From a virus: a stretch of 64,000 nt of DNA. Of this stretch, positions 12,658 through 27,015 are shown piece after piece. Location: the IMG/VR virus record IMGVR_UViG_3300021077_000115, positions 46,064 to 110,063 of that record. One strand, 5' to 3'. Position 1 is the first letter of the stretch. Each line of letters opens with the position of its first letter. The position numbers were made by a program, and so were the translations under genes. Below the pieces are notes generated by a model, which was given only the letters and a program-made list of their open reading frames with translations, was not told the DNA's origin and did not search any database.

Positions 12658-13086
12658 TCAATTAGGTTGAGTTGATTTGCCAATTGACTCGTAGTCAACC
12701 ACCGGGCCAAATATTTGAACGAATGACCGGAGCACATCTGAGTCAGACCGGTCGTATATTGGGAATGCCACCCTATCAAAGAACGGTAGCTTCTTCAAGT
12801 TCTCTTTGAACAATTCCGCAACCAGCAATGGATCATTGCCAAATACGCCACAACCCCAAGCCCCTAGGATGATCGTTCGATGTCCATGAAGTGCCATTAT
12901 CGATAGAATTTGATTCATTCTCTTAAATAGCGTCTCTTCAATTCTAATCTCCATTACCTCTTCTTGATCATCATCCATCTTGTTATCTTCATCATTGAAG
13001 ATTGCATGACGATTAGGAGCCGGAGATGTCAAAACTGATGTCAAGTATGATTGTTCTAGCCAATCACCAGCGTCATTCCTAAACAC
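12658..13086 (-). CDS. macro-like domain protein fragment (DUF2263/TIGR02452, bacterial-type PARG-like C-terminal region)
   Basis: The motif ILGAWGCGVFGNDPLLVAELF matches, from memory, the conserved GAWGCGAFGNDP block of the TIGR02452 macro-like family. Three short same-strand ORFs continue upstream in other frames. Confidence 0.4.
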   Translation of the reverse strand: MFRNDAGDWLEQSYLTSVLTSPAPNRHAIFNDEDNKMDDDQEEVMEIRIEETLFKRMNQILSIMALHGHRTIILGAWGCGVFGNDPLLVAELFKENLKKLPFFDRVAFPIYDRSDSDVLRSFVQIFGPVVDYESIGKSTQPN

Positions 13087-13779
13087 TGGAACATCAGGAG
13101 AGTAAATTGCATAGTCCTTGCATAGTCCAAATACAAGCCAATATTATCCCTTTGAGACTTCTTGTTCTCTTCATAGAACTCGGGATGCTTAATTAGCGTT
13201 GGGTACTTCCATCTGGAAAGATTGCTTGCTTCCATCCACCCTTGCACAAGCCACATCTTAAATGTTCACTACTAAATACAGATACCCACTCTTCGTAAGT
13301 ATACACCTTGCGTCGTCGTGGGTTTATTGCCACGGCATTAATAAATATTAGTGTGCGTCCTGATATCTGATTGCAAATATCCAAAACTCTAACAGCCAAT
13401 TCAGATGCTCGCTCTGGTTCATTCTTAGTATCTATATATATATATATATAATCTCTGGCCTGAATGTTCCTATTGAATATGCTTTCGTCATATTACTGAC
13501 GATGTCACCCTCATACAGATGAGATTGTGGATATTCTTTTTGAAAGACATCCTTTGATACTTTATACGCATCATTGTCTATTTCAGATCCATAATATTGA
13601 TTTGGTGTAATTAGTCCAGAATCAACCATCTGAACAATTTCAGAATTAGAATTTAATGATAAGTATTTTCCGGCCAGCGTCCAATACTGCCGAGATCTTT
13701 CAATTGAAATTCTACCAGTTAGATCTCGATATGGTAAAATTATACTTTCTTCTCTGGCGCTGGATTTTGACCAAGTCAT
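13056..13779 (-). pseudogene. possible frameshifted upstream part of the PARG-like macro gene (three consecutive ORFs of 66, 68 and 115 aa in different frames)
   Basis: ORFs 13056..13256, 13193..13399 and 13432..13779 tile the region in three frames. The middle one carries LIFINAVAINPRRRKVYTYEE, which resembles the LNFASA.NPGGG...QEE PARG signature block with GGG replaced by RRR. A (TA)9 microsatellite at 13433-13450 lies at a frame junction. Confidence 0.3.
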
Positions 13780-14093
13780 TCGGTCCTCACATCGCTCCTA
13801 AATATGGTTGCGCAATCCTTGCAGCAATGCGTCAGATGATGTGGAGTAATAGGTGCCGAAACATCCCAACCACCAAGCTCGCCACTCCCTGGCCCATTTG
13901 GTTTGACCTTATGACAAAGCGATGGCGTTGTAATGCCGCCATTAGGATGCTTACCAGACTCATCTAGCTTTCGGATATGCCATAGGTTTAGGGTGGCGGT
14001 GCTTGATTCACAGAACGAATACGCCTCTGATCCTAGAACGCTTGTGTGGCGATCTTTTTCAGTGAATAACACATTATTAAATGTTTGATACAT
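13776..14093 (-). CDS. hypothetical protein
   Basis: A 105-aa ORF that overlaps the radical SAM gene start by 17 nt. Confidence 0.4.
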   Translation of the reverse strand: MYQTFNNVLFTEKDRHTSVLGSEAYSFCESSTATLNLWHIRKLDESGKHPNGGITTPSLCHKVKPNGPGSGELGGWDVSAPITPHHLTHCCKDCATIFRSDVRTE

Positions 14094-15042
14094 TGCTAAT
14101 ACTCTCTACTTTATCATTAAATCTACACTTGAAGTCCATGCAATATGTACGGCATAGCTCATCATTATGAGAGTTGTGATCAGCAAACCACGCTTCGCGT
14201 AGCTCAACGTTATCTGGTCCAAACTTACCTATTGATGGCCCTCCCTCACGAATGTACACAGCACAAGGATAAAAATCATCTCCAAAGATTGTAATGTCAT
14301 CCCTAACCAAATGACATCTGGACGTTTGGGATAAGCCAGAGCCCCTCATGTTCCTGCCAGCATTGAAGTTATCAACCCTAAACTTTAGGATTGGATGTTT
14401 TGCAAGCAAGATACTATCCAGTTCAAAAGCGAGAATCTTGTTGTACTTTGTAGCTGTCATGATCCTGATATCGTGAGTCCCCAAACCGGATATGAATTCA
14501 ATAATCTCTCTATACTTACCCGCATTGTCATCATTGAATACAACTCCAACGTTCGTGTATACCATCTTAGATAATTCTCGAATGTTAGAGGTCACCACAT
14601 CAAAGACATTTGCCGGCACCATGGTAAACTTTGGATTAAGATTTCGCTGGTGAACATCAAGTGAAATTGAAAACAACTCAACTCCAGCTTCAATCAAATC
14701 CTTATAGTAAATTATCCTTCTAGATCCGTTGGTGGAGATACCAACCCTGATACCGAAATTCCTAATCAGCCGCACGATGTCAATGAGGTCTTTGCGGGTG
14801 GTTGGTTCTCCGCCGGTAAGGTGAATATACTTACAACCCATACCGGCTAGAATTTTGGTATAAGATCGGATTTGTTCCAGAGTTAAGTCTGCGGTGTGTC
14901 TCGGTTCCAGGCGATTGCAGTATGGACAGTTGAAGTTGCAATTGGATGTGATGATCCATTCGCAATAGGAGATCTTCCCATGGGTGATTCTTTCGGCACG
15001 CTCCTCAACTACTTCTAAGAATCCTATATCTTCTAGCTTCAT
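14077..15042 (-). CDS. radical SAM enzyme (MoaA/PqqE/SPASM-twitch-like maturase)
   Basis: It has the CNFNCPYC (CxxxCxxC) cluster, a GGEP motif (HLTGGEPT), an ISTNG block, and a C-terminal Cys-rich region (CHLVRD...YPCAVY...CRTYCMDFKC). Confidence 0.8.
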   Translation of the reverse strand: MKLEDIGFLEVVEERAERITHGKISYCEWIITSNCNFNCPYCNRLEPRHTADLTLEQIRSYTKILAGMGCKYIHLTGGEPTTRKDLIDIVRLIRNFGIRVGISTNGSRRIIYYKDLIEAGVELFSISLDVHQRNLNPKFTMVPANVFDVVTSNIRELSKMVYTNVGVVFNDDNAGKYREIIEFISGLGTHDIRIMTATKYNKILAFELDSILLAKHPILKFRVDNFNAGRNMRGSGLSQTSRCHLVRDDITIFGDDFYPCAVYIREGGPSIGKFGPDNVELREAWFADHNSHNDELCRTYCMDFKCRFNDKVESISNVSNI

Positions 15043-15335
15043 AAACTTATAACCTCAACAATCCATGTTAATTTGATTTGGACTTCGTTTACTCCACATT
15101 TGGCACACGGCATTCCTGTTCCATCATCAGGCTCAACGAATACCTCGGTCGTAGCAGGATTGAAGTCTGGTGTTGGGGATCGTATGTGGCGTACCACGCC
15201 AGTGATTGATATGGCAATTGCTGTTGTCTTGATTTGCATTCCAGTCAGAGCTGCCTTGTCGAACGGTTCTGCCTTGAACCATTCCGCCCGAATGCGTGAA
15301 CCTTTTTGGATTATGCCTTCCATGCGCGTCTCCAT
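15039..15335 (-). CDS. hypothetical small protein; paralog of the 55820..56197 product; translationally coupled to the radical SAM gene
   Basis: Shared blocks QKGSRIRAEWF, DDGTG..C.KCGV.EVQIK and a C-terminal ...EVISL occur in both paralogs. A CAKCG motif is present. The stop overlaps the radical SAM start. Confidence 0.5.
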   Translation of the reverse strand: METRMEGIIQKGSRIRAEWFKAEPFDKAALTGMQIKTTAIAISITGVVRHIRSPTPDFNPATTEVFVEPDDGTGMPCAKCGVNEVQIKLTWIVEVISL

Positions 15336-15345
15336 TGCCCGCCCG

Positions 15346-15390
15346 GCCTCCCCTGCCCCGCTCCGAGGCGCGACAGGGGTTTAGCAGGCC
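15346..15390 (-). promoter_or_regulatory. conserved ~40-bp upstream motif (copy 1), 10-25 nt upstream of the 15039..15335 start
   Basis: The plus-strand text is cccctgccccgctccgaggcgcgacaggggtttagcag. It contains a CCCCTG...CAGGGG dyad. It is near-identical to 56222..56265, which lies upstream of the paralog. Confidence 0.4.
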
Positions 15391-16397
15391 TATATCTTTT
15401 GTAGATTCTCGATGCTGTCGCGCCTAACCAATTCGAGTTTCTTGATCTTTGGCTTATCGATCTTCACTTTTGGATTGGACTGGGACACGCATACCACCGA
15501 CATCAATTCATCACGATTATATTTCTTACCATCCAGATCGAAAGAGGATATTCCACTAGCGATTACATTCCAACCTTTGAATGTTCCAGTGAAATTACAG
15601 CCGCTTGGACGATAACATCTAGCTGGAATTGTTATACTAACTCTCAACTCGTTCATCGCGGTGCCCTTGGCTACATAATAGCCGTCACCGCCTTCGTATT
15701 TCTCTCCATTATCACAGATTGTTGGAGAGGATCCATACTTGGCCTCGAAAAGTTTCTTTGCCTCATTGGCATCCTTGGCCACAATTGCCTCGTAAACAAT
15801 CTTTGACTTGATAATTACGGCACAAGGAAACCTTCGGTCACGTGGACCGCGCTTAGCAGATGTAGAATACTGATTGTCAGTAGAGTCATGAGATTCAGCC
15901 AAAGCTTCCGCCCCAGCCTCTTCTGGTTCTGATTCTGCTTCGGTCGCGACTTCCTGGTCGTGTGATGCAATCGTGAAAACACGTACCCCTTTGGTCTGTG
16001 CCAATTCGGCAGCGTATTCCTTTGCTTCATCCTTGCTTTTGCGCGGCTCCACAACGAGATTCAACTTGATTGCCAAATCACTGCAGAGTTTTGCGACAGA
16101 CTTAGCCGTTTCCGGATTGTCAAAGAGTCTGGCCAAACATGTATTAGATCCATTGATGCCGTAGAAATGAGCCCGATATGGTCCAGTTCCAGATCGATAT
16201 GATCCAGTCTTTCCCGTACCGCGAGTGCCATCTATATACAGTACTGAATGGCCATTGACGATGATGTCACCGCAACTAACCATATCCAATAGGCCCATCT
16301 CATGTACAAGTTCATTTAGTAAACTTTGCAACCCTGTATTCTTCTTAGACATATCACCATTATCCTTTGTCATGCTTAACCAATTTGATATACTCAT
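15390..16397 (-). CDS. hypothetical protein; C-terminal domain paralogous to the 2973..3470 product, with an acidic linker
   Basis: The 335-aa ORF has an N-terminal region with GTRGTGKTG, an acidic low-complexity linker (EAESEPEEAGAEALAESHD), and a C-terminal domain shared with the 165-aa protein at 2973..3470. Confidence 0.5.
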   Translation of the reverse strand: MSISNWLSMTKDNGDMSKKNTGLQSLLNELVHEMGLLDMVSCGDIIVNGHSVLYIDGTRGTGKTGSYRSGTGPYRAHFYGINGSNTCLARLFDNPETAKSVAKLCSDLAIKLNLVVEPRKSKDEAKEYAAELAQTKGVRVFTIASHDQEVATEAESEPEEAGAEALAESHDSTDNQYSTSAKRGPRDRRFPCAVIIKSKIVYEAIVAKDANEAKKLFEAKYGSSPTICDNGEKYEGGDGYYVAKGTAMNELRVSITIPARCYRPSGCNFTGTFKGWNVIASGISSFDLDGKKYNRDELMSVVCVSQSNPKVKIDKPKIKKLELVRRDSIENLQKI

Positions 16398-16504
16398 AAA
16401 TCCTCAATCCATAACCGCATCAATGATAGAGCTGCAAGCCCATGCAAACAGATACAAGGCTACACAGATTACAACAAGAGTATTGAAGAATAACCTTGCC
16501 ATAA

Positions 16505-16813
16505 TTATTTCTCGTTGGCCATTCTTTCATCTGCGTCATACAACTTATCCAAGAAGACATTGCCTGGCTCGCCGCAGATGGAGCAAGCTTCCATTACATT
16601 TGGGTAGCAAATATCACACAGATGCCTTCCGCACACTGAGCATCCCATATCACCAGGATGAGTCCCGCAAATCTCGCAGAACTCTTCCTCCAAGGCCAGC
16701 CGCGCTAGTTCTCCAAGATCATTTGAAGATGCAACATCTGAAATGCCAGCAATTGATTCAAGTACCGTCTTGAAAAATTGCATCTTCTTCTCAGTGAGTT
16801 CGACTGGTGTCAT
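16505..16813 (-). CDS. hypothetical Cys-rich zinc-ribbon protein (family A, full length)
   Basis: Four C-x-x-C pairs (CEICGTH, CSVCGRHLC, CDICYP, CSICGEPGN) sit in one 102-aa ORF. Paralogs are at 17706..18047 and a fragment at about 56362..56480. Confidence 0.5.
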   Translation of the reverse strand: MTPVELTEKKMQFFKTVLESIAGISDVASSNDLGELARLALEEEFCEICGTHPGDMGCSVCGRHLCDICYPNVMEACSICGEPGNVFLDKLYDADERMANEK

Positions 16814-17013
16814 AATACCACCTCGATCATCTCAAGCCCAACATGGCGATAGCTGCCTGGAACTTCAACCACCAAGCTTGGCAGGGTAACTAGGTGTGTA
16901 TTGCCAGAACGGCAACTGATGCAATCGCATTCCAAAATCTCGAAGATGCCCTCATTGAGCAACAACGGATCCTTGTAACGAACTTTTGTTCTTGGTGCCA
17001 TAATTAAATTCAC
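16810..17013 (-). CDS. hypothetical protein
   Basis: A 67-aa ORF with a 4-nt overlap downstream. Confidence 0.35.
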   Translation of the reverse strand: MNLIMAPRTKVRYKDPLLLNEGIFEILECDCISCRSGNTHLVTLPSLVVEVPGSYRHVGLEMIEVVL

Positions 17014-17152
17014 CTCTCTTTACCAGAGTAGCAATGCAAAGGGCAGCCACAATAAGGCACAGGAAAACACAAGCTATTAGCATTCTACCAGCCTTACGAT
17101 CAGATTCTTCATCCGCTCTCCAATTCAGACCTTTGTGATATCGCTCTACCAT
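16952..17152 (-). CDS. small hydrophobic (single-TM) protein
   Basis: It has a predicted TM segment, MLIACVFLCLIVAALCIATLV. It overlaps its neighbour, so the call is uncertain. Confidence 0.3.
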   Translation of the reverse strand: MVERYHKGLNWRADEESDRKAGRMLIACVFLCLIVAALCIATLVKRGEFNYGTKNKSSLQGSVVAQ

Positions 17153-17159
17153 ATTTCAC

Positions 17160-17666
17160 CTATGGATTATCCTTGTGATCAAAGTCTGTACAGCGATGAT
17201 AGGTTTGTCGTGCCCATGCTCCCTCTGTGTTCCACATATAATCACACAGAGCATAGAAGGTTGGCTCATCTATATTGCCAACCGTCAAGAAGTAGGTAGA
17301 GTGTTCCGGATCTCCTGGCCATCCCGCCTTTTGTATTGACGCCTTATTGGCTAGGTCTTTGCAGAAATCCTCACTGCAATCAATAAGGTACCCCTTGAGC
17401 TTTGCTAGGTCTTGCTGGGCACCTTCCATCGTTTCGAACTGACCAACATCAGCCGTCACGTTTTGGTATGGCAGATTGAAGATCTTGCACTTGGTTGGAA
17501 TCCAGGCTGAACTCTTGATGCTTGGATTTTCATACTCTTGAGGTAGAGTCATTGGGTGCTTGGCTCGAAGCCTGTCCAAAGTTATAGGCTCATCACTCCA
17601 AGCGCTACTGGATAATATTGGCATAGGATGTGGCTCGGGTACGAATAGCATTATCACGCTAGCCAA
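17160..17666 (-). CDS. hypothetical protein (family B, long paralog)
   Basis: The 168-aa ORF shares the block DEPTFYALCDYMWN....W.R.TYH.C.DF with the 18102..18350 product. Candidate starts are a TTG at 17664-17666 and an ATG 15 nt downstream. Confidence 0.5.
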   Translation of the reverse strand: MASVIMLFVPEPHPMPILSSSAWSDEPITLDRLRAKHPMTLPQEYENPSIKSSAWIPTKCKIFNLPYQNVTADVGQFETMEGAQQDLAKLKGYLIDCSEDFCKDLANKASIQKAGWPGDPEHSTYFLTVGNIDEPTFYALCDYMWNTEGAWARQTYHRCTDFDHKDNP

Positions 17667-17670
17667 AAGT

Positions 17671-17706
17671 GTTTCAACTCACGCTCCTTCTCAGGAGCGA
17701 TGTAAC
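17671..17706 (-). repeat. solitary (orphan) CRISPR repeat, 36/36 identical to the array repeat and in the same orientation
   Basis: The text is gtttcaactcacgctccttctcaggagcgatgtaac. No second repeat or degenerate copy lies within ±100 nt. It sits between the stop of 17706..18047 and the start of 17160..17666. Confidence 0.9.
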
Positions 17707-18047
17707 TAACATTTGGCCGAATGAGTTCCACAAATCTCGCAGAACGTTTCCTCCAAAGCTTTACGCGCCAAGGTTGCGATGTATTCTGGGTCCATTACAT
17801 CAGCACAGTTGACAATAGTTTCAAGTACCGTTTTGAAAAGTTGAAGTTTCTTTTCGGCAACTTCGTACTTGGTTATACAATCTTTCTCGTATGGATTCTT
17901 TAGAGATTTTCCTTGATGAAGACGTCTATTGATTCTTTTGAGATTGGTAGTTGTTCCATGATCATCTTCGTAATCAAAGTTTGCCCCAAGCATTTCTGCT
18001 CTAGCTTTCCAGCCAAGAAATAGTTCCCTTTGAAGTTTTGATTTCAT
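17706..18047 (-). CDS. hypothetical zinc-ribbon protein (family A paralog, C-terminally truncated at the orphan repeat)
   Basis: The 113-aa ORF ends ...EETFCEICGTHSAKC, whereas the paralog 16505..16813 continues with three more CxxC pairs. The stop codon overlaps the first nt of the orphan repeat. Confidence 0.45.
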   Translation of the reverse strand: MKSKLQRELFLGWKARAEMLGANFDYEDDHGTTTNLKRINRRLHQGKSLKNPYEKDCITKYEVAEKKLQLFKTVLETIVNCADVMDPEYIATLARKALEETFCEICGTHSAKC

Positions 18048-18101
18048 TGTAACTCCTCAATCATCTCGTGACCAACGTGACGGCTGGGCCATGATTGGTT
18101 G

Positions 18102-18350
18102 TTATTCCTCTAGGTATTTGAAGTCTGAGCAAACGTGATAGGTTTCCCTCGCCCACCGCTCAGGATACCCGTTCCACATGTAATTGCAGAGCGCGTAGAA
18201 TGTTGGATCGTCCATGTGCTCAATCACCAAATGGTAAGTAACACCACCTGGCCAGTTCGTTGGCTTCATCGCAACTTGCTCAGATAGGCCCTGACAAAAA
18301 TCCTCATTGCATGCATTGAGTGGGCTGTATTTCAATGGTTTGCTATTCAT
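18102..18350 (-). CDS. hypothetical protein (family B, short paralog)
   Basis: The 82-aa ORF shares DDPTFYALCNYMWNGYPERWARETYHVCSDF with the 17160..17666 product. Confidence 0.45.
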   Translation of the reverse strand: MNSKPLKYSPLNACNEDFCQGLSEQVAMKPTNWPGGVTYHLVIEHMDDPTFYALCNYMWNGYPERWARETYHVCSDFKYLEE

Positions 18351-18396
18351 TGGGTAAATCCATCTGCTTGTTTCATAAATATCCTTTCAGCCTGAA

Positions 18397-18669
18397 TTAA
18401 TCTACTTCCCAACCAGCTTCTAGCATTGCCTCAAAGCTTTCGAACTCGATTGTGGGAACTCCAACCAATCGAGTAGATAGAGGACCGCCTTCCAGTTCGA
18501 ACAGTTCGAACATGTTCTTGTGGTATAGCTTTGGACCATGCCCCTTTACCAAGAAGGCGCAATCAGGCCATCTATTATCGCCGCGCTTGACCATTGCAAA
18601 CACTATACTTGCCCATTGGTTATGGTCTGTGATGATGGCCAAATCTGCCTTCTGATCGTCATTCAACAT
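18397..18669 (-). CDS. hypothetical protein
   Basis: A 90-aa ORF. Confidence 0.4.
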   Translation of the reverse strand: MLNDDQKADLAIITDHNQWASIVFAMVKRGDNRWPDCAFLVKGHGPKLYHKNMFELFELEGGPLSTRLVGVPTIEFESFEAMLEAGWEVD

Positions 18670-18905
18670 AATAATGTCCCGTCTGTAAATCCATAGACAC
18701 CGAAGCCTTGGATTTCAACAATGTAAGTGTCCCAGTTGATGCGCTTATCAAACCCGTAATGCTTCACGCTCAACGAGTCATCGGCAACGCTTAATGGAGC
18801 CATGGAAGTCCTGACAGCTGCCATAAGAGCATCCATGGTTGGTTCGATTTCAATTGTGGTAGCCATCGATTCTTCCAAGCCACCACGGGCCTGTCGTAAT
18901 TTCAT
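18663..18905 (-). CDS. hypothetical protein
   Basis: An 80-aa ORF whose start overlaps the upstream stop. Confidence 0.4.
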   Translation of the reverse strand: MKLRQARGGLEESMATTIEIEPTMDALMAAVRTSMAPLSVADDSLSVKHYGFDKRINWDTYIVEIQGFGVYGFTDGTLLC

Positions 18906-20486
18906 TCAAGCCGCCTTCCGTAAACCAACTATTCGTTTCTTCACCGCACACTCTGGACACCATTGTTTGGTGTTTTTTATCTGGTCAGCTCTTCCACACC
19001 AACGATGTCCTTCGGCACATTCAAGTTCTATTTTATCAAAACAACTAGTTATTGATGTGGAAAGACACTGACCGCCCTTCTTTTCGGCGGCTACTTGATA
19101 AGCCTCAATTCCAATATGTTTGGCCTTTGAACGCTTAATTATTCCACACTTAGGACACCAATCACCCCTCTGAATTGCGTTGTAGGTTGCCATCCAAACA
19201 TTACCACAAGAACATTGCCACTCAAGTTTTGTATAGTTGTTTTTGTATTCTGTAGATAGACAGACCCCACCACGATCACCAGCAATCTTTTGAATATCGG
19301 CTATAGATATTTTTGTCTTATGAGAACAAACCGAACACCAATTACCGTTCTTTATTCTGGTTGGCGTGGATGTCCATTCATGATTAAGACCACACACTAA
19401 TTTGATGGTACAATTGTGACCGCTATAAATTGTTGAAAGACAATCACCACCTTTGCTTTGTGCAATGTCTTTTATTTTTTGTAACTCTTTATCACGTTCA
19501 ATAAGGTTTACCGCATCAAAATCTATAATTTCAGAAGCTGGTTGAAGTCTTTTTAAATCATACTTTATTTTTGTATTATCCAATTGCAAACCTATAACGG
19601 TATGAAGGAGATCTAGTGCGGTTATATAAAACAACGCTGGGATTTCTATTAGTATTACTCCCGCTTGTTGGCATATAAATCTTTTTCTAGAATCTCTGAT
19701 TTGTATATCTGTGGTATTGCCTTTAAAACATGAAATGTTTTCGTAATGCTGAAGACCTTGATGTTCGAAAGCAATACCAATTTCTTTGCAATACCCATCA
19801 AGTTCCATTAATTTATCATTATAATTAGTTAGCCAAAGCGGTCGTATTTTAGGAAACGGTTTTCTAAATAAGAATTCAAGATACTGCCTGCATATGTTTT
19901 CAGAAAAGCTAGAACTACAATGTGGACACCAAGAATGTTTGTATATGACATTCTGGAATGTGGCCTCCCATTTATGACCAGCATCACATTCCCAAATCAT
20001 TTTTTCTTTTAATGAAATATATTCTGATACTAATTTACCACCGCGCTTAAGTGCTGTCTCCTTTGCTAGTTCCAGTTTGTCAGCATAAGAACCTCCAAGT
20101 TGGCAAGTTGGACACCATGAGCCATGATTAATAGTCTTGAAATCAGTTTCCCACTTATGACCTTCCGAACATATGAATTTAAGCTTTTTTCTATTATTGA
20201 TGTAGGTTTCTGAAAGGCATTTTCCTCCATGGGATATAGCAATATCTTTAGCTTCTTGTATCTTATGCGGCTGCGCTTTTACTGCCATACGTTTATTAGT
20301 ATCGTTATAACAAGTAGCACAACCACCACCATTTCTTATACTCTTAGCTGTTGGATGACAAAGATGCCCTTCTGAACAAATTACATCAAGTTTTTGATTG
20401 TTGTCTTTATATTCAACAGTCAACAATTTAAAGCCTTTTACCTCTACCAACTCCCGAACTAGATCTAGTGTTAATTTCTTTGACAA
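18906..20486 (-). CDS. multi-zinc-ribbon repeat protein with a central PD-(D/E)XK-like nuclease-type block
   Basis: At least six copies of a ~45-aa unit (GG.CLS..Y.N....KL.F.C..GH.W......I..G.WCP.C) flank a central region. That region (FSENICRQYLEFLF...LMELDGYCKEIGIAFEHQGLQHYE) resembles E..D...IAFEYQG nuclease cores, read by eye. Confidence 0.45.
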   Translation of the reverse strand: MSKKLTLDLVRELVEVKGFKLLTVEYKDNNQKLDVICSEGHLCHPTAKSIRNGGGCATCYNDTNKRMAVKAQPHKIQEAKDIAISHGGKCLSETYINNRKKLKFICSEGHKWETDFKTINHGSWCPTCQLGGSYADKLELAKETALKRGGKLVSEYISLKEKMIWECDAGHKWEATFQNVIYKHSWCPHCSSSFSENICRQYLEFLFRKPFPKIRPLWLTNYNDKLMELDGYCKEIGIAFEHQGLQHYENISCFKGNTTDIQIRDSRKRFICQQAGVILIEIPALFYITALDLLHTVIGLQLDNTKIKYDLKRLQPASEIIDFDAVNLIERDKELQKIKDIAQSKGGDCLSTIYSGHNCTIKLVCGLNHEWTSTPTRIKNGNWCSVCSHKTKISIADIQKIAGDRGGVCLSTEYKNNYTKLEWQCSCGNVWMATYNAIQRGDWCPKCGIIKRSKAKHIGIEAYQVAAEKKGGQCLSTSITSCFDKIELECAEGHRWCGRADQIKNTKQWCPECAVKKRIVGLRKAA

Positions 20487-21937
20487 GTAAACTCCAGCAA
20501 ATATCTAAGATTGTGCTGGTCAGTTCTATACAACATCATCTCGTCATTAATAACTCCACTTTGCCCACCCTTAGCCCATACAGAATGATATGGAGCTATT
20601 GATTTTAAAGTATATTGCCCAGGTGATTTTGCCATAAATTGATTTCCTAATGCACAATCGGATACAAATAAGAAAGCCCTATCATCAGAGCCTTTCGCCC
20701 AATATGATGACCTAATATTAGTATAATTGATGCTCTTTGTTGAAGAACTTGATTTATATATTGCCTCCGAGCCGTACATAGAACCAGTAATAATAGCACC
20801 AGCTGGACGAATCAACAAACCAGACTTCAATATACCTGTAATATTTTGTGATCTTGAGCCATGAAACAAAGGAATTACATTGGCATTATGAAACAGATCT
20901 GTATCATATACATCCTTTCTCTTTGTAACAATACCCATCTGATCTGGAATTACTTGCTTACCACATTGTTTTGATATTTCTTTAGCTCTGCCTAAGAAGC
21001 GATCACGTTCTCCATTGCGCTGTATATCCCAAGCATTCAAAAGAGTAATCTTGCCGAGGTAATGATGATTACTGGCTCGTGTATCTTGTACTAACCTATC
21101 CAACCAACCGAACCTATAATCTGTTTTTTCTATAAAACAAAACTCTGTATCCAAAGATTTGTATTGATCATATACTGAGTTGCTTGTAAGTGTAGCCCCA
21201 ATGGATTTTGCATCCAATAAGGTATCAAGCTCATCCTCTAAAACAGCAACCTTCTGATCACTATCAATCAATAAATGCATCATCTGACCACGAGCACCAG
21301 CTCCAAGATTATGAGGAATCAATCCATAGAATTGATTAGTTAAATCCAATAAATCATTATAGTTCTTATTAGAAGCCAAGATGCGTTTAGCTGCCACTAG
21401 ACAGGCACGACCACGATCTACCTGATCATTGGTTAGCTGTCCAAGAGGACACTTTAGAGTTTTAATAACCCAATTATTGGTTGCTCCCATTAGCACAGAA
21501 ACAATTCTGAATGTTTCTACATGAATAGAAGGCTGTGATGGAGTTGCGGATGAGTCAGCATTTTTTAACTGAACAGTCTTAACATGCTTCTTGGCCTCAT
21601 CGCTACCGAGGGTGCGCTGAGCTACATCAATTTCAACATAACCTTTCTTGAGCTTGGCCTTCTTGATAGAGTTGAACTCAGCCTCGGCAGCAGCACGATC
21701 TGTACCGAAATATCTCCAGTTACTTGCTTGAATTGTTCCAGTGGGTCCGTGTTGAGAAAAAATCTGACATGTATCATCTTTACCTACTTGCAGTTCCATA
21801 TGATACATCTTGTTACTTGAACCACAAGTGCCGGATTTTTCTCCTATCATATCGAAGAAGTTTAGTTCTAAAATCCAGCCTGCAGGAACTTCGTAATCTG
21901 TAATTGTTGCTCGTTTATCTGCTTTTACTTTTGCCAT
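20471..21937 (-). CDS. poly(ADP-ribose) polymerase (PARP) homolog with WGR, helical regulatory and catalytic ART domains
   Basis: A WGR-like N-terminus (WILELNFFDMIGEKSG...NKMYHMELQV...RYFGTDRAAAEAEFNSIKKAKLKKGY) is present. The catalytic signature is LFHGSRSQNITGILKSGLLIRP (H), MYGSEAIYKSSSS (Y) and VINDEMMLYRTDQHNLRYLLEF (E). This matches the PARP1 blocks HGSR..N..GIL..GL, YF...SKSA.Y and YNEYIVY...NLKYLL. Confidence 0.8.
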   Translation of the reverse strand: MAKVKADKRATITDYEVPAGWILELNFFDMIGEKSGTCGSSNKMYHMELQVGKDDTCQIFSQHGPTGTIQASNWRYFGTDRAAAEAEFNSIKKAKLKKGYVEIDVAQRTLGSDEAKKHVKTVQLKNADSSATPSQPSIHVETFRIVSVLMGATNNWVIKTLKCPLGQLTNDQVDRGRACLVAAKRILASNKNYNDLLDLTNQFYGLIPHNLGAGARGQMMHLLIDSDQKVAVLEDELDTLLDAKSIGATLTSNSVYDQYKSLDTEFCFIEKTDYRFGWLDRLVQDTRASNHHYLGKITLLNAWDIQRNGERDRFLGRAKEISKQCGKQVIPDQMGIVTKRKDVYDTDLFHNANVIPLFHGSRSQNITGILKSGLLIRPAGAIITGSMYGSEAIYKSSSSTKSINYTNIRSSYWAKGSDDRAFLFVSDCALGNQFMAKSPGQYTLKSIAPYHSVWAKGGQSGVINDEMMLYRTDQHNLRYLLEFTCQRN

Positions 21938-22587: not shown

Positions 22588-22824
22588 TCAGATAATTACA
22601 ACGACATTCACTGGGTCGTCATTACCATCTACATCGGAATTCGCCCAATACTGCCATCCGTTTGCAGTCGGTGTTTCGTGGAGCCGATTAACGCCAAGAA
22701 CTTCTCTCGCCCACGCTCTTGCTGCACGTTCAGAGCGTACAATAGTATGATACCTATTCATGTAAGAAAGTTGTAAACGTCTTTTGATTCGACTTCGAAG
22801 TAAACTAACAGGTTTACGAGCCAT
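22588..22824 (-). CDS. hypothetical basic protein
   Basis: The 78-aa ORF is Arg-rich. Confidence 0.35.
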   Translation of the reverse strand: MARKPVSLLRSRIKRRLQLSYMNRYHTIVRSERAARAWAREVLGVNRLHETPTANGWQYWANSDVDGNDDPVNVVVII

Positions 22825-22835
22825 GATTCTACTTT

Positions 22836-22961
22836 CTATCGGTTATCAGTTATCAGTCAGAAATCTGCAGTCGGCGGTCGGCAGTCGGCAGTCAGCTATC
22901 GGAGGTCGGCGGTCGGAGGTCGGAGGTCGGCGGTCGGCTATCAGCTATCGGCTATCGGTAG
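22836..22961. repeat. intergenic tandem array of ~18 degenerate 7-bp units (consensus TCGG[A/C]GG on plus strand)
   Basis: The tract ctatcgg ttatcag ... tcggcgg tcggcag tcggcag tcagcta tcggagg tcggcgg tcggagg tcggagg tcggcgg tcggcta tcagcta tcggcta tcggtag has 7-nt periodicity throughout, with one phase slip near 22857. It lies exactly between two minus-strand genes. Confidence 0.85.
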
Positions 22962-23207: not shown

Positions 23208-23414
23208 CTAGGACTCCAATGTTTCAACATGAAGTTTAGGTTCTTTTCCATTCCGATAAACGCCATCCACCATCAGGAAGTTATCTGGACATAGAACTAC
23301 TTTCACACCAGAGCACGGATAGGCTTTGGCCCACGTACTCTTTCCAACACCAGGCAGACCAGTGAGTAGAATGTTACGCTTCTCCCATAGCTTGTTTATT
23401 ACCAAAGATGCCAT
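23208..23414 (-). CDS. small P-loop NTPase-like protein (Walker A only)
   Basis: The 68-aa ORF carries LLTGLPGVGKSTWAKAY. Confidence 0.4.
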   Translation of the reverse strand: MASLVINKLWEKRNILLTGLPGVGKSTWAKAYPCSGVKVVLCPDNFLMVDGVYRNGKEPKLHVETLES

Positions 23415-23679: not shown

Positions 23680-23681
23680 AG

Positions 23682-23909
23682 TTATTTTCTCGCTATTGCT
23701 CTTCGACCTTCATCAGTAGGTTCCAATACCAATCGGTAGTTTTCATCACTCCGATGGTCATCCTTTTTCACATAACCAAGCTTGAGTAACGTTATCGCTG
23801 GTTTGTAGTCTGGCACACACGACCACATCACAAAACCCTTATCAGCAACTTCAATTACTTCTTGAAGAGTTCGAAGTTGTGCAGAGCTCAGCCTAACTTT
23901 ATTGGCCAT
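23682..23909 (-). CDS. hypothetical protein
   Basis: A 75-aa ORF. Confidence 0.4.
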   Translation of the reverse strand: MANKVRLSSAQLRTLQEVIEVADKGFVMWSCVPDYKPAITLLKLGYVKKDDHRSDENYRLVLEPTDEGRRAIARK

Positions 23910-25575
23910 GGTTTCCTATTTCAGGTTCAACTAAATGAAACTCTCGAACAAAGTACGACTTCCTATTCTTCGGATCTCCATACGAAATGACAGCAACACT
24001 TCCGGGCTTGGCTTGGAATACCTCCACGCTCCGAGGATCTCCAACGTACAGAATACGAATCTCCCAAAGTTCTTTGGGATGATCTTTGAGCGTTACAATA
24101 TAGCTTGTGTTGCTGTTGACTGTAATGGATTCGACGCTGTCGATTACACCCTTGACCTCTTTATCCTCCAGAACGTTCGAGCCAGTTCTAGCGGATTGAC
24201 TCATGACAAGGTGTTGCTCATATCGCAAGAAGGTATCCTGCTTGTTGTTGGCCCATATTACATTGGCGGGCTTGACATCGTAATTAGCGCGCAGAAGGAA
24301 AGTTGCCGCATAGAGAGCGCCATACTCCTTGTTATCGTTATCAACTGCCGGCTTGGTAAGAACTCCCTCCCATGTCCGTTCTCCGTAGATGGAATGAATC
24401 GTCATATCTTCTGGAGTGTATCCATAGAGCGCAGTTGCTTGCTTGACGGCATTGAGCGCTGCGCTTTTTGTCGCCATGCTCTGCTTACCTTCAGTCAAGT
24501 AATAGGTGCACTCGCCTGTCCTTGGGTCGCAAAGCATAATCCCTGATGTTGAAACATCTGGCATCGAGCTGGTAATGTAGGCCGTGTAAACTAGATTGGT
24601 ATTAGCCTCGTTCATTACCGGATACAGATCGTTACCATCAACCTGAAATTGATTTAGCTTTGATGTCTTCCCAAAGTTTTCTGTATTGTAGCCCCAATAA
24701 TTTATAGCATCACACAACACATTCTCAGAATAGATTTGGTCAATCCACTCCGGAATCTTAGGATCCCGTTCATTCTTTTCAGTGAAAGGATTGTCGAGCA
24801 AGAACTCCTGAAGTTTTTCTTCTTGAGGATCAACCAGAATAAACTTCTCAGCCCAGTATCCATGTCCATTTTCAAGTTTATCGGCGTCATCCATTACATA
24901 CGTAACTGTAAAGAATGGACGCCAGTTGTCATCAACCTCCAACGTTGGGTTGTCTAGCCTGTGATATCCTACAGTCCAATAGCCACGATTACGCAGGAAG
25001 CGATAGATGTTGTGGTCATCCCTTGTAGTTGATTGATCACCGAGATACAGCTTGATTTTGTACGGGTGCCCATCTTCGTCCTGGATCCGAATCCAAGCTG
25101 GCCGTGTTTCATCTTCTGCATCGGCTACACCAATAGCTGGAATGGCTCTTCCAGTCTGTTCGTATGCCGCTCGATTTGCTTCATCCTTTGGATAGTCGAG
25201 CATCGCAATATAATACTGATGCCCTTTGACTACGACCGGAGTAATTGCAGGGCCACCATCGCCACCTTCATCGGTGTCCGTTTTGGCAATTTGAAAAACG
25301 GTGCTCAACCGATAATTGAACTTGCCATCGTATGTCTCAAGTGCCTGATTGATTTTGGCCGCCGCCATAAGACGGCTGACATTTGAGATCTGAGTGCGCG
25401 TTGTAGCAAGCGGCTTGTTGGGTTCCGCAATCTTTACCTTGAGTATCTTCTTCCACTTGATTCGATTGGAAAGCTTCGGTGCCCCAGTCTCATCCTTTAT
25501 TGTGCTTCCATTGCATCCACTAAACATTAGCAATGAGCACAGAATCAGCAATGCGATCTTGAATAGTTGTTTCAT
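23899..25575 (-). CDS. putative lipoprotein
   Basis: The signal peptide MKQLFKIALLILCSLLMFSGC has a lipobox-like FSGC. The mature domain is 558 aa with no recognised motifs. Confidence 0.55.
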   Translation of the reverse strand: MKQLFKIALLILCSLLMFSGCNGSTIKDETGAPKLSNRIKWKKILKVKIAEPNKPLATTRTQISNVSRLMAAAKINQALETYDGKFNYRLSTVFQIAKTDTDEGGDGGPAITPVVVKGHQYYIAMLDYPKDEANRAAYEQTGRAIPAIGVADAEDETRPAWIRIQDEDGHPYKIKLYLGDQSTTRDDHNIYRFLRNRGYWTVGYHRLDNPTLEVDDNWRPFFTVTYVMDDADKLENGHGYWAEKFILVDPQEEKLQEFLLDNPFTEKNERDPKIPEWIDQIYSENVLCDAINYWGYNTENFGKTSKLNQFQVDGNDLYPVMNEANTNLVYTAYITSSMPDVSTSGIMLCDPRTGECTYYLTEGKQSMATKSAALNAVKQATALYGYTPEDMTIHSIYGERTWEGVLTKPAVDNDNKEYGALYAATFLLRANYDVKPANVIWANNKQDTFLRYEQHLVMSQSARTGSNVLEDKEVKGVIDSVESITVNSNTSYIVTLKDHPKELWEIRILYVGDPRSVEVFQAKPGSVAVISYGDPKNRKSYFVREFHLVEPEIGNHGQ

Positions 25576-26492
25576 TTCTTTATCTCTTGCGGTTTGAAGT
25601 TTCGAGTAGATAGTAACGTTCCCTGAGTTGAGAATTGATAGGCGCGCACAGCATCATTCTCAAACAAGAACACTTGTCCGACATTGATGTGCAGCTTGTT
25701 GTGTCGTTCATCATGGAAGGTTACTTGATTCCCATCCACATGAGCGTCAGCGATGTGCTCCGATACATAGGGTGTGAACCCAGCCGTACCTGAGGTATAT
25801 CGCTGTGAATACTTTATGATTCCTGTATCGCTAATCAGTGCCAGATTCAGGAATGAAGCTTTGCTGCGCTCATCCATTACTTCAGCGCTGTTCGACCACG
25901 GACCAAAGTCAGTCTCCTGTTTATCAGCAACCTGCTGTTGGTAGACTTCAACCTTGGGCGGTTCTGGTGGAGTTGTTGAAACAACTGGAGCTTCCGTATA
26001 GTAACGTTGGATACCCCAAACTGATAATACCAGAATAGCTGAGTAGATGAAGTCAACAATAGCTACTAGTGAGATTAGAGATTGGAACATGAAGATGGCA
26101 AGGACAACCACACTCTCGCCATTATAGTAGGATGACCATGATGCCGATGGCGAAACATCCCATGTTGGTGGAGACCATTCAACATGAGGGGCTGGCTTGG
26201 CGGCTTTTGCTTTCTTTGCCTTCCGTGCTTCATTCCATGGAACGAATTCTTGATAGTATGTACAGCGTACATGAAGCCACATGCGCGTAGCCATTACGGC
26301 AATTTCACGCCATGGATTTTTGAGACGCGCCATCCACTTCCAGCTCTTAGTTGCCGTAGCAATGATTACAGGAATCAATAGTGTGATTCCTATCGCTGCT
26401 TGGATGGCTACATAGCCAATGAAGATGGGACAGATTATACAATAGAAGAGAAGCTCTCTTCCAATTATATTCCACGATGATGACTTAGACAT
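25572..26492 (-). CDS. integral membrane protein
   Basis: Two strongly hydrophobic stretches (IICPIFIGYVAIQAAIGITLLIPVIIATA and VVVLAIFMFQSLISLVAIVDFIYSAILVLSV) are present. A KAKKAKAAK basic patch follows. Confidence 0.5.
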   Translation of the reverse strand: MSKSSSWNIIGRELLFYCIICPIFIGYVAIQAAIGITLLIPVIIATATKSWKWMARLKNPWREIAVMATRMWLHVRCTYYQEFVPWNEARKAKKAKAAKPAPHVEWSPPTWDVSPSASWSSYYNGESVVVLAIFMFQSLISLVAIVDFIYSAILVLSVWGIQRYYTEAPVVSTTPPEPPKVEVYQQQVADKQETDFGPWSNSAEVMDERSKASFLNLALISDTGIIKYSQRYTSGTAGFTPYVSEHIADAHVDGNQVTFHDERHNKLHINVGQVFLFENDAVRAYQFSTQGTLLSTRNFKPQEIKK

Positions 26493-27015
26493 TTTGAATC
26501 CCCATTTCGGCGAAGCATTCAGATACTTCGTCAGACATATATGTTACCAAGAAGATTTCCTCAAGAGATGTTTCGCCCTGGAGAAATGACTCCACCTCAC
26601 GTACAGCAATCTCACATGCTTGCTGTATTGGGTAGCCGAAGATGCCGGTACTGATTGCCGGAATGGCTATTGAATTACCGTGAAGCTCGCCAAGCTTCAG
26701 TGAGTTTCTGTAGCACGAAGCAAGCAGCTCGGCTTCGTGACGCTTCCCACCACGCCATGTGGGACCAGCTGTATGGATTACGAATTTACAAGGCAGCTTG
26801 AACGCCGGAGTAATTCGGACATACCCCGTTGGACACCGAACTCCTTTGGATACTTCTGGAATCAGAGCGCAAGCGTCAACTAAACTAGTACCAGCCGCTC
26901 TGTGAATTGCTCCATCAACCCCACCGCCACCAAGCATTCGTTCGTTGGCCGCGTTGACAATGCAGTCAACGTTCATAGTAGTTATGTCTTGTTCGATAGT
27001 TCTATAGCGTGCCAT
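26485..27015 (-). CDS. macrodomain protein (MacroD/YmdB-type ADP-ribose-binding / ADP-ribosylhydrolase)
   Basis: The canonical macro motifs VDCIVNAANERMLGGGGVDGAIHRAAG and IAIPAISTGIFGYP are present. Confidence 0.85.
   Translation of the reverse strand: MARYRTIEQDITTMNVDCIVNAANERMLGGGGVDGAIHRAAGTSLVDACALIPEVSKGVRCPTGYVRITPAFKLPCKFVIHTAGPTWRGGKRHEAELLASCYRNSLKLGELHGNSIAIPAISTGIFGYPIQQACEIAVREVESFLQGETSLEEIFLVTYMSDEVSECFAEMGIQNV

What the first reader, a model, noticed from the sequence alone, without database searches (positions are those of the whole stretch)
12658..27015. ADP-ribosylation writer and erasers on one element: WGR-PARP with intact H-Y-E triad, a MacroD-type macrodomain and a fragmented PARG-like macro locus
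Seen: 20471..21937 encodes WGR plus a helical regulatory domain plus a catalytic domain. The H (HGSR), Y (MYGSEAIY) and E (NDEMMLY) residues match poly-ADP-ribosylating PARPs. 26485..27015 is a canonical macrodomain (IVNAAN...GGGGVDGAIHRAAG). 12658..13086 carries GAWGCGVFGNDP, the TIGR02452/DUF2263 bacterial-PARG-like block as recalled from memory. Its upstream part is split into three short ORFs, and one shows NPRRR where PARG has NPGGG. Inference: this is a phage-borne PARylation system. It may modify host or competitor proteins or DNA ends (it is co-encoded with Ku and ligase), with erasers to control or reverse the modification. The PARG-like gene may be inactivated, phase-variable (a (TA)9 tract at 13433-13450) or mis-assembled.
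Basis: partly seen in the sequence, partly recalled or inferred. Interest (0 to 1): 0.6.

Follow-up and report, generated by a model that had tools for sequence, protein, structure and literature searches.

The report
Phage PARP, macrodomain, dead PARG remnant
A very large, probably viral genome carries an intact PARP-type ADP-ribose "writer" and one intact "eraser" (a MacroD/YmdB-type macrodomain), but its second eraser (a bacterial-type PARG) is a dead remnant; this is a new example of a known kind of system rather than a new kind.

Summary
The three sequence observations are real. 20471..21937(-) is an intact WGR + helical-regulatory + catalytic PARP. Its H359/Y394/E466 align to human PARP1 H862/Y896/E988. 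26485..27015(-) is an intact YmdB/MacroD-type macrodomain. 12658..13086(-) is the C-terminal part of a TIGR02452/bacterial-type PARG.

The reading of the "fragmented PARG locus" is partly wrong. PARG homology runs only from 12658 to about 13206, which is codons ~122-299 of intact 293-302 aa relatives. An 11-bp tandem duplication at 13107..13128 frameshifts it. The first ~121 codons, with the catalytic GGG-X6-8-QEE signature, are absent.

The two upstream ORFs, including "NPRRR", belong to an unrelated conserved 214-aa gene in which NPRRR is native. That gene is frameshifted by the (TA)9 expansion and has lost its 3' end at a chimeric junction with the PARG remnant. Three independent assemblies share this junction, so it is not a mis-assembly. 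(TA)n varies (9 or 10 units), and both alleles are out of frame.

Related huge-phage contigs carry PARP with intact PARG, and one carries Macro-PARP-PARG in the same order. The ancestral module was therefore writer plus two erasers, and this genome has decayed to writer plus MacroD. Linkage to Ku and ligase is not conserved. PARP, PARG and macro genes in phages are already documented.

The parts
20471..21937 (-). Intact PARP-type ADP-ribosyltransferase, 488 aa. It has a WGR-like domain (res ~20-105), a helical regulatory domain (~140-261) and an ART domain (~264-486). The triad is H359, Y394, E466; the acceptor-site equivalents are K401 and Y405.
   Evidence: Pfam PARP/PARP_reg/WGR, all above cutoff. 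phmmer to PARP1/2 PDB chains at E 1e-19. In a 30-sequence family alignment H359, K401, Y405 and E466 are invariant and Y394 is >=90% conserved. hhalign to the PARP1 catalytic domain gives prob 99.9 with H862/Y896/Y907/E988 matched. The AF2 model has pLDDT 84.9 and its top Foldseek hits are PARP1/PARP2 WGR-HD-ART chains on DNA breaks.
26485..27015 (-). Intact MacroD/YmdB-type macrodomain, 176 aa (VNAAN, GGGGVDGAIH, STGIFGYP).
   Evidence: Pfam Macro at E 3e-41 over the full profile 1-118. phmmer to E. coli YmdB 5CB3 at E 2e-45 and to MacroD1/2. NCBIfam O-acetyl-ADP-ribose deacetylase models score 187-195 bits, below their equivalog cutoffs of 200-291. The ortholog in L012 is 65% identical.
12658..13206 (-). 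Remnant (pseudogene) of a bacterial-type PARG (TIGR02452/PF10021). It corresponds to residues ~122-299 of intact relatives. It keeps the GAWGCGVFGNDP loop and lacks the GGG-X6-8-QEE catalytic signature.
   Evidence: TIGR02452 at 92 bits for the 142-aa ORF, rising to 139.5 bits (profile 114-264) after removing the 11-bp duplication. tblastn of intact P0001/P0002 matches residues 122-150 in one frame and 148-299 in another, with nothing for 1-121 (E>=0.58). DNA alignment to L006/L007.
13107..13128 (.). Perfect 11-bp tandem duplication (GGACTATGCAA x2 on the - strand) that frameshifts the PARG remnant.
13205..13779 (-). Pseudogene of an unrelated, conserved 212-219 aa family with no Pfam match. 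It is frameshifted at the (TA)9 tract and lacks its last ~25 codons. It contains the native NPRRR motif.
   Evidence: A fused query finds P0241-P0243 at 69-75% identity over 97-99% of its length. The intact 214-aa P0247 in L018/L019 is 100% identical over residues 1-189 apart from the TA expansion.
13433..13450 (.). (TA)9 microsatellite, an expansion of TATATACATA found in relatives. It adds 8 nt here and 10 nt in L004; both alleles are out of frame.
   Evidence: It is the only dinucleotide run of >=6 units in the 64-kb window.
13204..13206 (.). Chimeric junction between the 214-aa-family gene and PARG codon ~121, with 2-nt (GT) microhomology.
   Evidence: 97.3% nt identity to L018 ends exactly at 13205. 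The parental sequences are compared. The junction is identical in L004 and L005.
18906..20486 (-). 526-aa zinc-finger/HNH homing-endonuclease-like gene that overlaps the PARP 3' end. It travels with PARP in relatives.
   Evidence: Pfam DUF4379 and CapR. PHROG 559 and 681 HNH/endonuclease. Present next to PARP in L010, L013 and L018.
27901..35481 (-). Neighbouring DNA-end genes: FtsK-like ATPase (27901..28953), ATP-dependent DNA ligase (30419..31186), calcineurin-like phosphoesterase (31302..32189) and Ku (34549..35481). These are context, not shown to belong to the system.
   Evidence: Pfam. Synteny phosphoesterase-ligase-FtsK-PARP is seen only in L011.

Best explanation
The region is part of an accessory ADP-ribosylation module of a lineage of very large (about 200-460 kb) phage-like genomes.

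The writer is an intact PARP1/2-like enzyme (WGR-like domain, autoinhibitory helical domain, ART domain with H-Y-E). I infer that it uses NAD+ to ADP-ribosylate itself and other targets, probably building at least short poly(ADP-ribose) chains and probably in response to nucleic-acid ends.

One eraser is intact: a YmdB/MacroD-type macrodomain. It would remove the protein-proximal (or terminal) ADP-ribose or process free ADP-ribose derivatives.

The second eraser is a bacterial-type exo-PARG that is intact in related genomes. Here it is a recently killed gene. A rearrangement with 2-nt microhomology fused its codon ~121 to the 3'-truncated end of an unrelated 214-aa gene, deleting the GGG-X6-8-QEE active site. 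An 11-bp tandem duplication then frameshifts what is left. The neighbouring gene is additionally frameshifted by an unstable (TA)n expansion.

Shown: the gene identities, the lesions, their reproducibility across assemblies, and the intact state in relatives. Inferred: enzymatic activity, poly versus mono, DNA-break activation, and targets.
For: Writer. The family has at least 385 members, and 114 of 116 full-length members keep HG[ST] and NDE.

Macro.

PARG remnant and lesions.

The upstream ORFs belong to another gene.

Not an assembly artefact: the window, L004 (SRR13557794) and L005 (SRR35913720) are identical except for the TA count.

Ancestral trio:
- L012 has Macro (65% id), PARP and intact PARG (67% id) in the same order within 12 kb.
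- L007 and L011 have PARP plus intact PARG with the signature.

Retention of a PAR-specific glycohydrolase beside the PARP in several relatives argues that the PARP makes ribose-ribose bonds.

Literature: a PARG + MacroD duo accompanies active bacterial PARPs (PMC8120803). Phage PARPs and phage PARG are documented (PMC4245714, PMC9503650).
Against: - No biochemical data exist for this clade.
- H-Y-E is necessary but not sufficient for chain elongation; by established knowledge, PARP3 and PARP4 have it and are mono-transferases.
- Compared with PARP1, the family lacks ~27 residues of the acceptor-loop region and has N464 where PARP1 has Y986.
- The W and R of the WGR motif are not kept (H63-G64-P65), so DNA-break activation is not assured.
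- Macro and PARG are each missing near PARP in several relatives (L009, L010, L013, L018), so the three genes need not act together.
- A second PARG or an ARH elsewhere in the ~392-kb genome cannot be excluded, because only 64 kb were available.
- No phage structural gene lies in the window.
Confidence: 0.7

Rival explanations
1. DNA-break signalling coupled to phage NHEJ. The PARP senses breaks in the phage (or host) chromosome and ADP-ribosylates proteins or DNA ends. This coordinates the co-encoded Ku, ATP-dependent ligase, phosphoesterase and SNF2 helicase, as PARP1-3 do in eukaryotes.
For: Ku, ligase, calcineurin-like phosphoesterase, FtsK-like ATPase and SNF2 lie 6-19 kb upstream on the same strand. 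The order phosphoesterase-ligase-FtsK-PARP recurs in L011. The model superposes on PARP1/PARP2 chains from DNA-break complexes. A T4 endoV-like glycosylase is also in the window.
Against: Ku is not within 10 kb of PARP in L009, L010, L011 or L013, the four relatives that hold 9.5-10 kb on that side. Ligase and FtsK are absent near PARP in L009, L010 and L013. The WGR tryptophan and arginine that contact the DNA end and the helical domain in PARP1 are not conserved. Large phage genomes cluster many unrelated DNA-metabolism genes.
Confidence: 0.3
2. The genes serve host takeover and counter-defence rather than forming one reversible system. The PARP modifies host proteins or drains or redirects NAD+, as T4 Alt/Mod do. 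The macrodomain independently removes ADP-ribose placed on phage DNA, RNA or proteins by host defence transferases, or degrades ADP-ribose-derived immune signals.
For: Macro and PARP are separated by 8 genes, and macro is absent near PARP in most relatives. A Tad2-like (Thoeris anti-defence) gene is in the same window. Jumbo-phage Macro domains have been proposed to degrade host ADPr-derived signals (PMC7824862). Viral ARTs are mostly conflict enzymes (PMC9503650).
Against: The architecture is the regulated PARP1/2 type, with an autoinhibitory helical domain, not a toxin-like ART. A PAR-specific PARG is repeatedly co-located with the PARP. The orthologous Macro-PARP-PARG order in L012 persists although PARP identity is only 44-46%. 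Neither PARP nor macro matches any PADLOC model.
Confidence: 0.3
3. The (TA)n tract is a phase-variation switch (contingency locus) that turns the PARG-like locus, or a chimeric gene, on and off.
For: The tract length differs between samples: 9 units in the window and L005, 10 in L004. It is the only long dinucleotide run in 64 kb. (TA)8 or (TA)11 would restore the frame of the upstream gene.
Against: The tract is in an unrelated gene. Both observed expanded alleles are out of frame. Even in frame, the gene would end at TQR* without its conserved C-terminus, in a different frame from the PARG remnant. The PARG remnant lacks its catalytic half and has its own frameshift. The intact relative has no tract.
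Confidence: 0.05

Closest known systems
Bacterial PARP + bacterial-type PARG + MacroD modules (Herpetosiphon aurantiacus, Clostridioides difficile CD160, Butyrivibrio proteoclasticus; PMC8120803, PMC5966428, PMC4245714)
   Same: The PARP has the same three domains (WGR, PARP_reg, ART with H-Y-E). It is accompanied by the same eraser pair, DUF2263/TIGR02452 PARG and a MacroD homologue. The intact relatives' PARG matches T. curvata PARG 3SIG at E 2e-56 with the GGG-X6-8-QEE signature.
   Different: The module is carried by very large phage-like genomes rather than bacterial chromosomes. The three genes are spread over ~14 kb among orphan genes and homing endonucleases, not in an operon. In this genome the PARG is a truncated, frameshifted remnant. 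The WGR motif residues W and R are not kept.
Human PARP1/PARP2 (WGR-HD-ART, DNA-break activated)
   Same: The fold and domain order match (Foldseek E 2e-26, TM 0.6-0.7). H862/Y896/E988, K903 and Y907 equivalents are conserved.
   Different: Sequence identity is only ~20%. There are no zinc fingers or BRCT. There is a ~35-residue insertion (res 315-350) and a ~27-residue deletion in the acceptor-loop region. Y986 is replaced by N. WGR reads HGP.
Previously noted phage PAR-metabolism genes: PARP in Aeromonas phage Aeh1 and Cellulophaga phage phi4:1, bactPARG in Bacillus phage G (PMC4245714); 'PART' family ARTs in phages (PMC9503650)
   Same: These are phage-encoded PARP-family ARTs with H-Y-E, and phage-encoded bactPARG and Macro. 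tblastn finds these same phages.
   Different: In the INPHARED reference collection no isolate holds all three genes at the sensitivity used. Only the uncultured 595-kb LR756511 has PARP plus PARG, and phage G has PARG plus macro. The present clade is 25-40% identical to those and has no near DNA match.
E. coli YmdB / human MacroD1-2
   Same: Full-length Macro domain with N-x(6)-GGVD, H and G-[IV]-[YF]-G catalytic/ADPr-binding motifs (motif list in PMC8120803).
   Different: It scores below NCBIfam equivalog cutoffs. It has F where YmdB has Y126. The substrate is unknown.

Membership tests
PARP1/2/3-type ADP-ribosyltransferase (PF00644 + PF02877 + PF05406) | ART catalytic domain recognised above the curated threshold | tested here: met
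   PF00644 at 68.7 bits against a cutoff of 26.7. Fold match to PARP1 catalytic domains with TMt 0.74-0.79.
PARP1/2/3-type ADP-ribosyltransferase (PF00644 + PF02877 + PF05406) | H-Y-E catalytic triad | tested here: met
   H359=H862, Y394=Y896 and E466=E988 by hhalign at prob 99.9. H359 and E466 are invariant and Y394 is >=90% conserved in 30 relatives. 114 of 116 homologs keep HG[ST] and NDE.
PARP1/2/3-type ADP-ribosyltransferase (PF00644 + PF02877 + PF05406) | Helical (autoinhibitory) regulatory domain N-terminal to ART | tested here: met
   PF02877 at 43.3 bits against 26.8. The model has helices at 140-261.
PARP1/2/3-type ADP-ribosyltransferase (PF00644 + PF02877 + PF05406) | WGR domain with the Trp-Gly-Arg motif that reads the DNA end | tested here: inconclusive
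   The domain is recognised (PF05406 at 26.6 bits against 22) and the fold matches WGR-containing chains. The motif itself reads H63-G64-P65, and only the Gly is invariant in the family.
PARP1/2/3-type ADP-ribosyltransferase (PF00644 + PF02877 + PF05406) | Synthesis of poly(ADP-ribose) chains; activation by DNA breaks | not testable with these tools
   Indirect evidence only. The K903/Y907 equivalents K401/Y405 are invariant and a PARG is co-located in relatives. Against this, the acceptor loop is shortened and Y986 is replaced by N.
MacroD/YmdB-type macrodomain hydrolase | Complete Macro fold domain | tested here: met
   PF01661 at E 3e-41, profile 1-118/118.
MacroD/YmdB-type macrodomain hydrolase | Catalytic/ADPr-binding motifs N-x6-GGVD, His, G-x-[YF]-G (YmdB N22, N25, G32, D35, H39, Y126; PMC8120803) | tested here: met
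   Aligned to YmdB 5CB3 with VNAAN, GGGGVDGAIH and STGIFGYP. Position Y126 is F, as in some MacroD proteins.
MacroD/YmdB-type macrodomain hydrolase | Equivalog-level score to O-acetyl-ADP-ribose deacetylase models | tested here: not met
   195.4 bits against a cutoff of 291, and 187.1 against 200. It is a family member, but not callable as an equivalog.
Bacterial-type PARG (TIGR02452 / PF10021 / DUF2263) | Sequence similarity above the family threshold | tested here: met
   92 bits against a cutoff of 50 for the 142-aa ORF, and 139.5 bits after repairing the duplication. 86-93% aa identity to intact relatives.
Bacterial-type PARG (TIGR02452 / PF10021 / DUF2263) | PARG signature GGG-X6-8-QEE with the catalytic glutamates | tested here: not met
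   There is no counterpart of residues 1-121 anywhere in 12000..15200 (best E 0.58). 108 of 111 full-length homologs have the signature.
Bacterial-type PARG (TIGR02452 / PF10021 / DUF2263) | Single uninterrupted ORF of ~265-300 aa | tested here: not met
   The gene is 5'-truncated at codon ~121 and frameshifted by an 11-bp tandem duplication.
Phase-variable (contingency) locus | Simple-sequence repeat inside a coding region, with length polymorphism that toggles an otherwise intact ORF | tested here: not met
   The repeat is polymorphic at 9 or 10 units. Both alleles are out of frame, the gene is also 3'-truncated, and it is not PARG.

The most novel reading that the evidence does not exclude
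A widespread clade of huge phages (at least 385 PARP homologues, on contigs up to ~460 kb) runs a eukaryote-like, regulated poly(ADP-ribose) cycle: a WGR-HD-ART writer, an exo-PARG and a MacroD. The cycle would manage breaks in the phages' own very large genomes during infection, in some members together with phage-encoded Ku/ligase end joining. The module is being lost piecemeal in some lineages; here PARG has just died. If so, these phages would be a tractable prokaryotic model of PAR signalling and a plausible vehicle for horizontal spread of PARP/PARG genes.
Probability: 0.25. Interest if true: 0.65.

Novelty: new member of a known kind. Interest (0 to 1): 0.35.

Why it matters
PARP, bacterial-type PARG and MacroD modules are known in a few bacteria, and single genes are known in a few phages, but their biology outside eukaryotes is essentially untested. 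This locus and its relatives show three things. A large, conserved family of PARP1/2-like enzymes lives in huge phage-like genomes. The writer plus two-eraser set is ancestral there. PARG is dispensable enough to be lost while PARP and MacroD stay intact. That gives concrete constructs for biochemistry: this PARP, its macrodomain, and an intact PARG from L006, L011 or L012. It also provides a natural 'PARG-minus' comparison. The correction of the 'NPRRR/phase-variable PARG' reading prevents a false lead.

Tried and rejected
- Near-identical DNA in reference phages: none found.
- IMG/VR scans with single-protein patterns for macro and PARG found no relatives. The PARP scan found only two loci, without macro or PARG in +/-10 kb.
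- 'SGKHPNGG' in ORF 13776..14093 resembled PARG 'SAKHPGGG' (E 0.58). I rejected it because that ORF is a conserved unrelated gene, 68% identical to L006 3580..3822.
- The idea that 'NPRRR' is a decayed NPGGG was rejected by the homologues P0241-P0243 and P0247.
- A simple deletion between neighbouring genes could not be established. In relatives the 214-aa gene is followed by a 152-aa gene and a DEAD/ResIII helicase that are absent from the window, and PARG lies elsewhere. The event is best called a rearrangement or illegitimate recombination.
- PADLOC gave no defence-system match for PARP or macro.
- PHROG and Pfam scans of 10 large ORFs found no capsid, portal or terminase gene in the window. 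Viral origin therefore rests on indirect evidence.
- DNA for P0002's contig (the closest intact PARG) was unavailable.
Full report
**Observation**

- 20471..21937(-) encodes 488 aa with Pfam PARP (68.7 bits), PARP_reg (43.3) and WGR (26.6), each above its gathering score.
- 26485..27015(-) is a complete Macro domain (E 3e-41).
- 12658..13086(-) scores 92 bits on NCBIfam TIGR02452 against a cutoff of 50, covering only profile positions 147-264 of 266.
- (TA)9 is at 13433..13450 and is the only dinucleotide run of >=6 units in the window.
- Ku, an ATP-dependent ligase, a calcineurin-like phosphoesterase, an FtsK-like ATPase and an SNF2 helicase lie upstream on the same strand.

**The PARP**

phmmer finds human PARP1 and PARP2 chains at E ~1e-19. 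It aligns LFHGSR to LWHGSR (H862) and AIY...INY to GIY...ANY (Y896, Y907). The segment with the glutamate aligned only weakly.

I therefore built a 30-sequence family alignment (A3). In it H359, K401, Y405 and N464-D465-E466 are invariant, and Y394 is >=90% conserved.

I compared that profile with the PARP1 catalytic fragment. hhalign gives probability 99.9 and pairs H359/H862, Y394/Y896, K401/K903, Y405/Y907 and E466/E988.

The same alignment shows differences from PARP1:
- a ~35-residue insertion (315-350);
- loss of ~27 residues of the acceptor-loop region;
- N464 where PARP1 has Y986.

In the WGR-like domain only the glycine of the W-G-R motif is conserved (H63-G64-P65).

An AlphaFold2 model from A3 has pLDDT 84.9 and pTM 0.77. 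Its best Foldseek matches are the WGR-HD-ART chains of PARP1 and PARP2 bound to DNA breaks (E 2e-26, TM 0.6-0.7).

Membership in the PARP1/2/3-type family is therefore solid. Poly- versus mono-activity and DNA dependence remain inferences, because H-Y-E is necessary but not sufficient.

**The macrodomain**

The best solved relative is E. coli YmdB (E 2e-45), followed by MacroD-type domains and human MacroD1/2. The motifs listed for YmdB in PMC8120803 (N-GGVD-GVYG) are present as VNAAN, GGGGVDGAIH and STGIFGYP. NCBIfam equivalog cutoffs are not reached. It is a MacroD-type family member of unknown exact substrate.

**The 'fragmented PARG locus'**

A search with a repaired fragment found intact 293-302 aa proteins at 80-88% identity (P0001, P0002, P0003, P0005). 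P0001 matches T. curvata PARG 3SIG over its full length (E 2e-56) and has NFASAKHPGGGFLGGAAAQEE.

tblastn of these proteins against 12000..15200 matches only residues 122-150 (one frame) and 148-299 (another frame). Residues 1-121 have no counterpart (best E 0.58).

The two frames are separated by a perfect 11-bp tandem duplication at 13107..13128. Deleting one copy restores ...LYLDYAIYSPDVPVFRND... and raises the TIGR02452 score to 139.5 bits. DNA alignment with the intact genes of L006 and L007 shows ~85-90% identity downstream of the YPTLIKHP codons and noise upstream.

**What lies upstream**

I fused ORF 13432..13779 to the 'NPRRR' frame by removing one TA unit. The fused query retrieved 212-219 aa proteins covering 97-99% of it at 69-75% identity. 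NAVAINPRRRKVYTYEEW is conserved in them.

Their 90% cluster contains an intact 214-aa protein, P0247. It is 100% identical to the window over residues 1-189, except that it reads EIIYIDTK with no TA expansion.

At the DNA level, L018 3871..5982 equals window 15323..13205 at 97.3%, and homology stops exactly at 13205. The junction reads GATGGAAGT|ACCCAACGCTAATTAAGC. One parent continues ...AAGT|GGAGGTATCTTGTATCC, and the PARG parent reads ...CATTGT|ATCCAACG. That leaves 2 nt of microhomology.

Relatives have TATATACATA where the window has (TA)9 (+8 nt) and L004 has (TA)10 (+10 nt). Both are out of frame.

The genes that follow the 214-aa gene in relatives (a 152-aa gene and a DEAD/ResIII helicase) are absent from the window. 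The event was therefore a rearrangement rather than a demonstrable simple deletion.

The window, L004 and L005 come from different samples and are otherwise identical across the locus, so mis-assembly is excluded.

The locus is two adjacent pseudogenes: [214-aa family gene, TA-frameshifted and 3'-truncated] | [PARG, 5'-truncated and frameshifted]. Apart from these lesions the frames are open and nearly identical to intact relatives, so the decay is recent.

**Relatives and the 'system' question**

The PARP has at least 385 homologues of ~490 aa on contigs up to 458 kb. The window's own proteins sit on a 391,957-bp JGI contig.
- L012 (PARP 44-46% identity) carries Macro (65% identical to the window's), then 7 small genes, PARP, a LAGLIDADG endonuclease, R2K ATP-grasp genes, an AAA gene and an intact PARG, all within 12 kb.
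- L007 and L011 carry PARP and an intact PARG 4-10 kb downstream, with the signature.
- L009, L010, L013 and L018 show neither macro nor PARG in the DNA held around PARP (+/-10 kb for the first three).

The writer plus two-eraser set is thus ancestral or recurrent but patchy, and the window represents a PARG-loss state.

Linkage to NHEJ genes is weak. Phosphoesterase-ligase-FtsK-PARP recurs only in L011, and Ku is not near PARP in L009, L010, L011 or L013, the relatives that hold 9.5-10 kb on that side.

**Is it a phage?**

It is likely a phage, but this window does not prove it. No structural gene was found. The indirect evidence is:
- unidirectional dense genes, mostly orphans;
- several homing-endonuclease genes;
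- PHROG-only families;
- relatives catalogued as IMG/VR viral genomes of 209 kb and 54 kb;
- distant PARP and PARG hits in uncultured 460-640 kb phages.

One relative is labelled 'Candidatus Pacearchaeota' in NCBI. That label sits oddly with the I-C cas genes, phage-type families and IMG/VR-listed relatives seen across this clade, so I suspect a binning error; I did not test it.

**Comparison with what is known**

- PARG plus MacroD accompanying an active WGR-PARP is described for H. aurantiacus, C. difficile and B. proteoclasticus (PMC8120803).
- PARP genes in phages Aeh1 and phi4:1 and bactPARG in Bacillus phage G are listed in PMC4245714.
- PARP-like 'PARTs' are among the most frequent viral ARTs in PMC9503650.

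In the INPHARED reference set, at tblastn E<=1e-5, only the uncultured LR756511 has both PARP and PARG. Phage G has PARG and macro 4 kb apart. No record had all three.

The finding is therefore a new member of a known kind: a huge-phage clade version, here partly decayed. It is not a new kind of system.

**Verdict**

It is wrong on NPRRR and on phase variation, and unproven on the Ku/ligase coupling and on poly-ADP-ribosylation. Interest is moderate-low (0.35).

Noticed in passing
window 45650..46555 and 46780..52860: There is a CRISPR array of 13 copies of a ~36-nt repeat (GTTTCAACTCACGCTCCTTCTCAGGAGCGATGTAAC) with ~36-nt spacers. It lies directly beside type I-C effector genes cas7 (46780..47616), cas8c/csd1 (47661..49553), cas5 (49550..50260) and cas3 (50383..52860). 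I did not see cas1, cas2 or cas4 in the ORFs scanned. L011, a relative, also has cas7 near its PARP region.
   Followed up: partly
window 54132..54437 (-): A 101-aa protein carries a Tad2-like (Thoeris anti-defence 2) domain (PF11195, E 1.3e-8). It sits next to a short R2K ATP-grasp gene (54437..54841). The same R2K-Tad2 pair occurs in relative L018. It is another NAD+/ADP-ribose-related conflict gene on this element.
   Followed up: partly
window 55446..55889 (-): A T4 endonuclease V-like pyrimidine-dimer DNA glycosylase (PF03013, E 2e-24). It adds to the DNA-repair gene content (Ku, ligase, phosphoesterase, SNF2).
   Followed up: no
window 16505..18350 (-): A two-gene module is tandemly duplicated and diverged: 16505..16813 / 17160..17666 and 17706..18047 / 18102..18350, sharing ...FCEICGTH... 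and ...DPTFYALC.YMWN... motifs. All three Logan contigs that carry the PARP end here (window ~17,690), probably because the repeat breaks short-read assemblies.
   Followed up: partly
window 22837..22958: An intergenic array of ~17 degenerate heptamers (CCGAYNG on the - strand; TRF period 7, up to 9.9 copies). It lies just upstream of the small gene 22588..22824 and 0.9 kb upstream of PARP. It is identical in L001 and L002. Its function is unknown.
   Followed up: partly
window 14077..15042 (-): A radical SAM enzyme between PARP and the PARG remnant is conserved in relatives at 85-99% identity. It has weak viperin-like (pVip) and MoaA-like matches, well below the family cutoffs. In relatives an R2K ATP-grasp gene and an AAA ATPase lie between it and the PARG gene, with the AAA gene immediately upstream of PARG in L006 and L012; here they are missing.
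   Followed up: no
L018 versus window 13205..21454: The genomes are mosaic. The rSAM-105-214 segment is 97.3% identical at the DNA level to L018, while the adjacent PARP/endonuclease segment is only ~75% identical. This indicates recent recombination between related genomes.
   Followed up: no
window 18906..20486 (-); L007 231..1022; L012 4619..5410: The gene immediately downstream of PARP is always a homing-endonuclease-type gene. It is a zinc-finger/HNH-like 526-aa protein here and in L010, L013 and L018, and a LAGLIDADG gene on the opposite strand in L007 and L012. This suggests the PARP 3' flank is a hot spot for mobile endonucleases.
   Followed up: no
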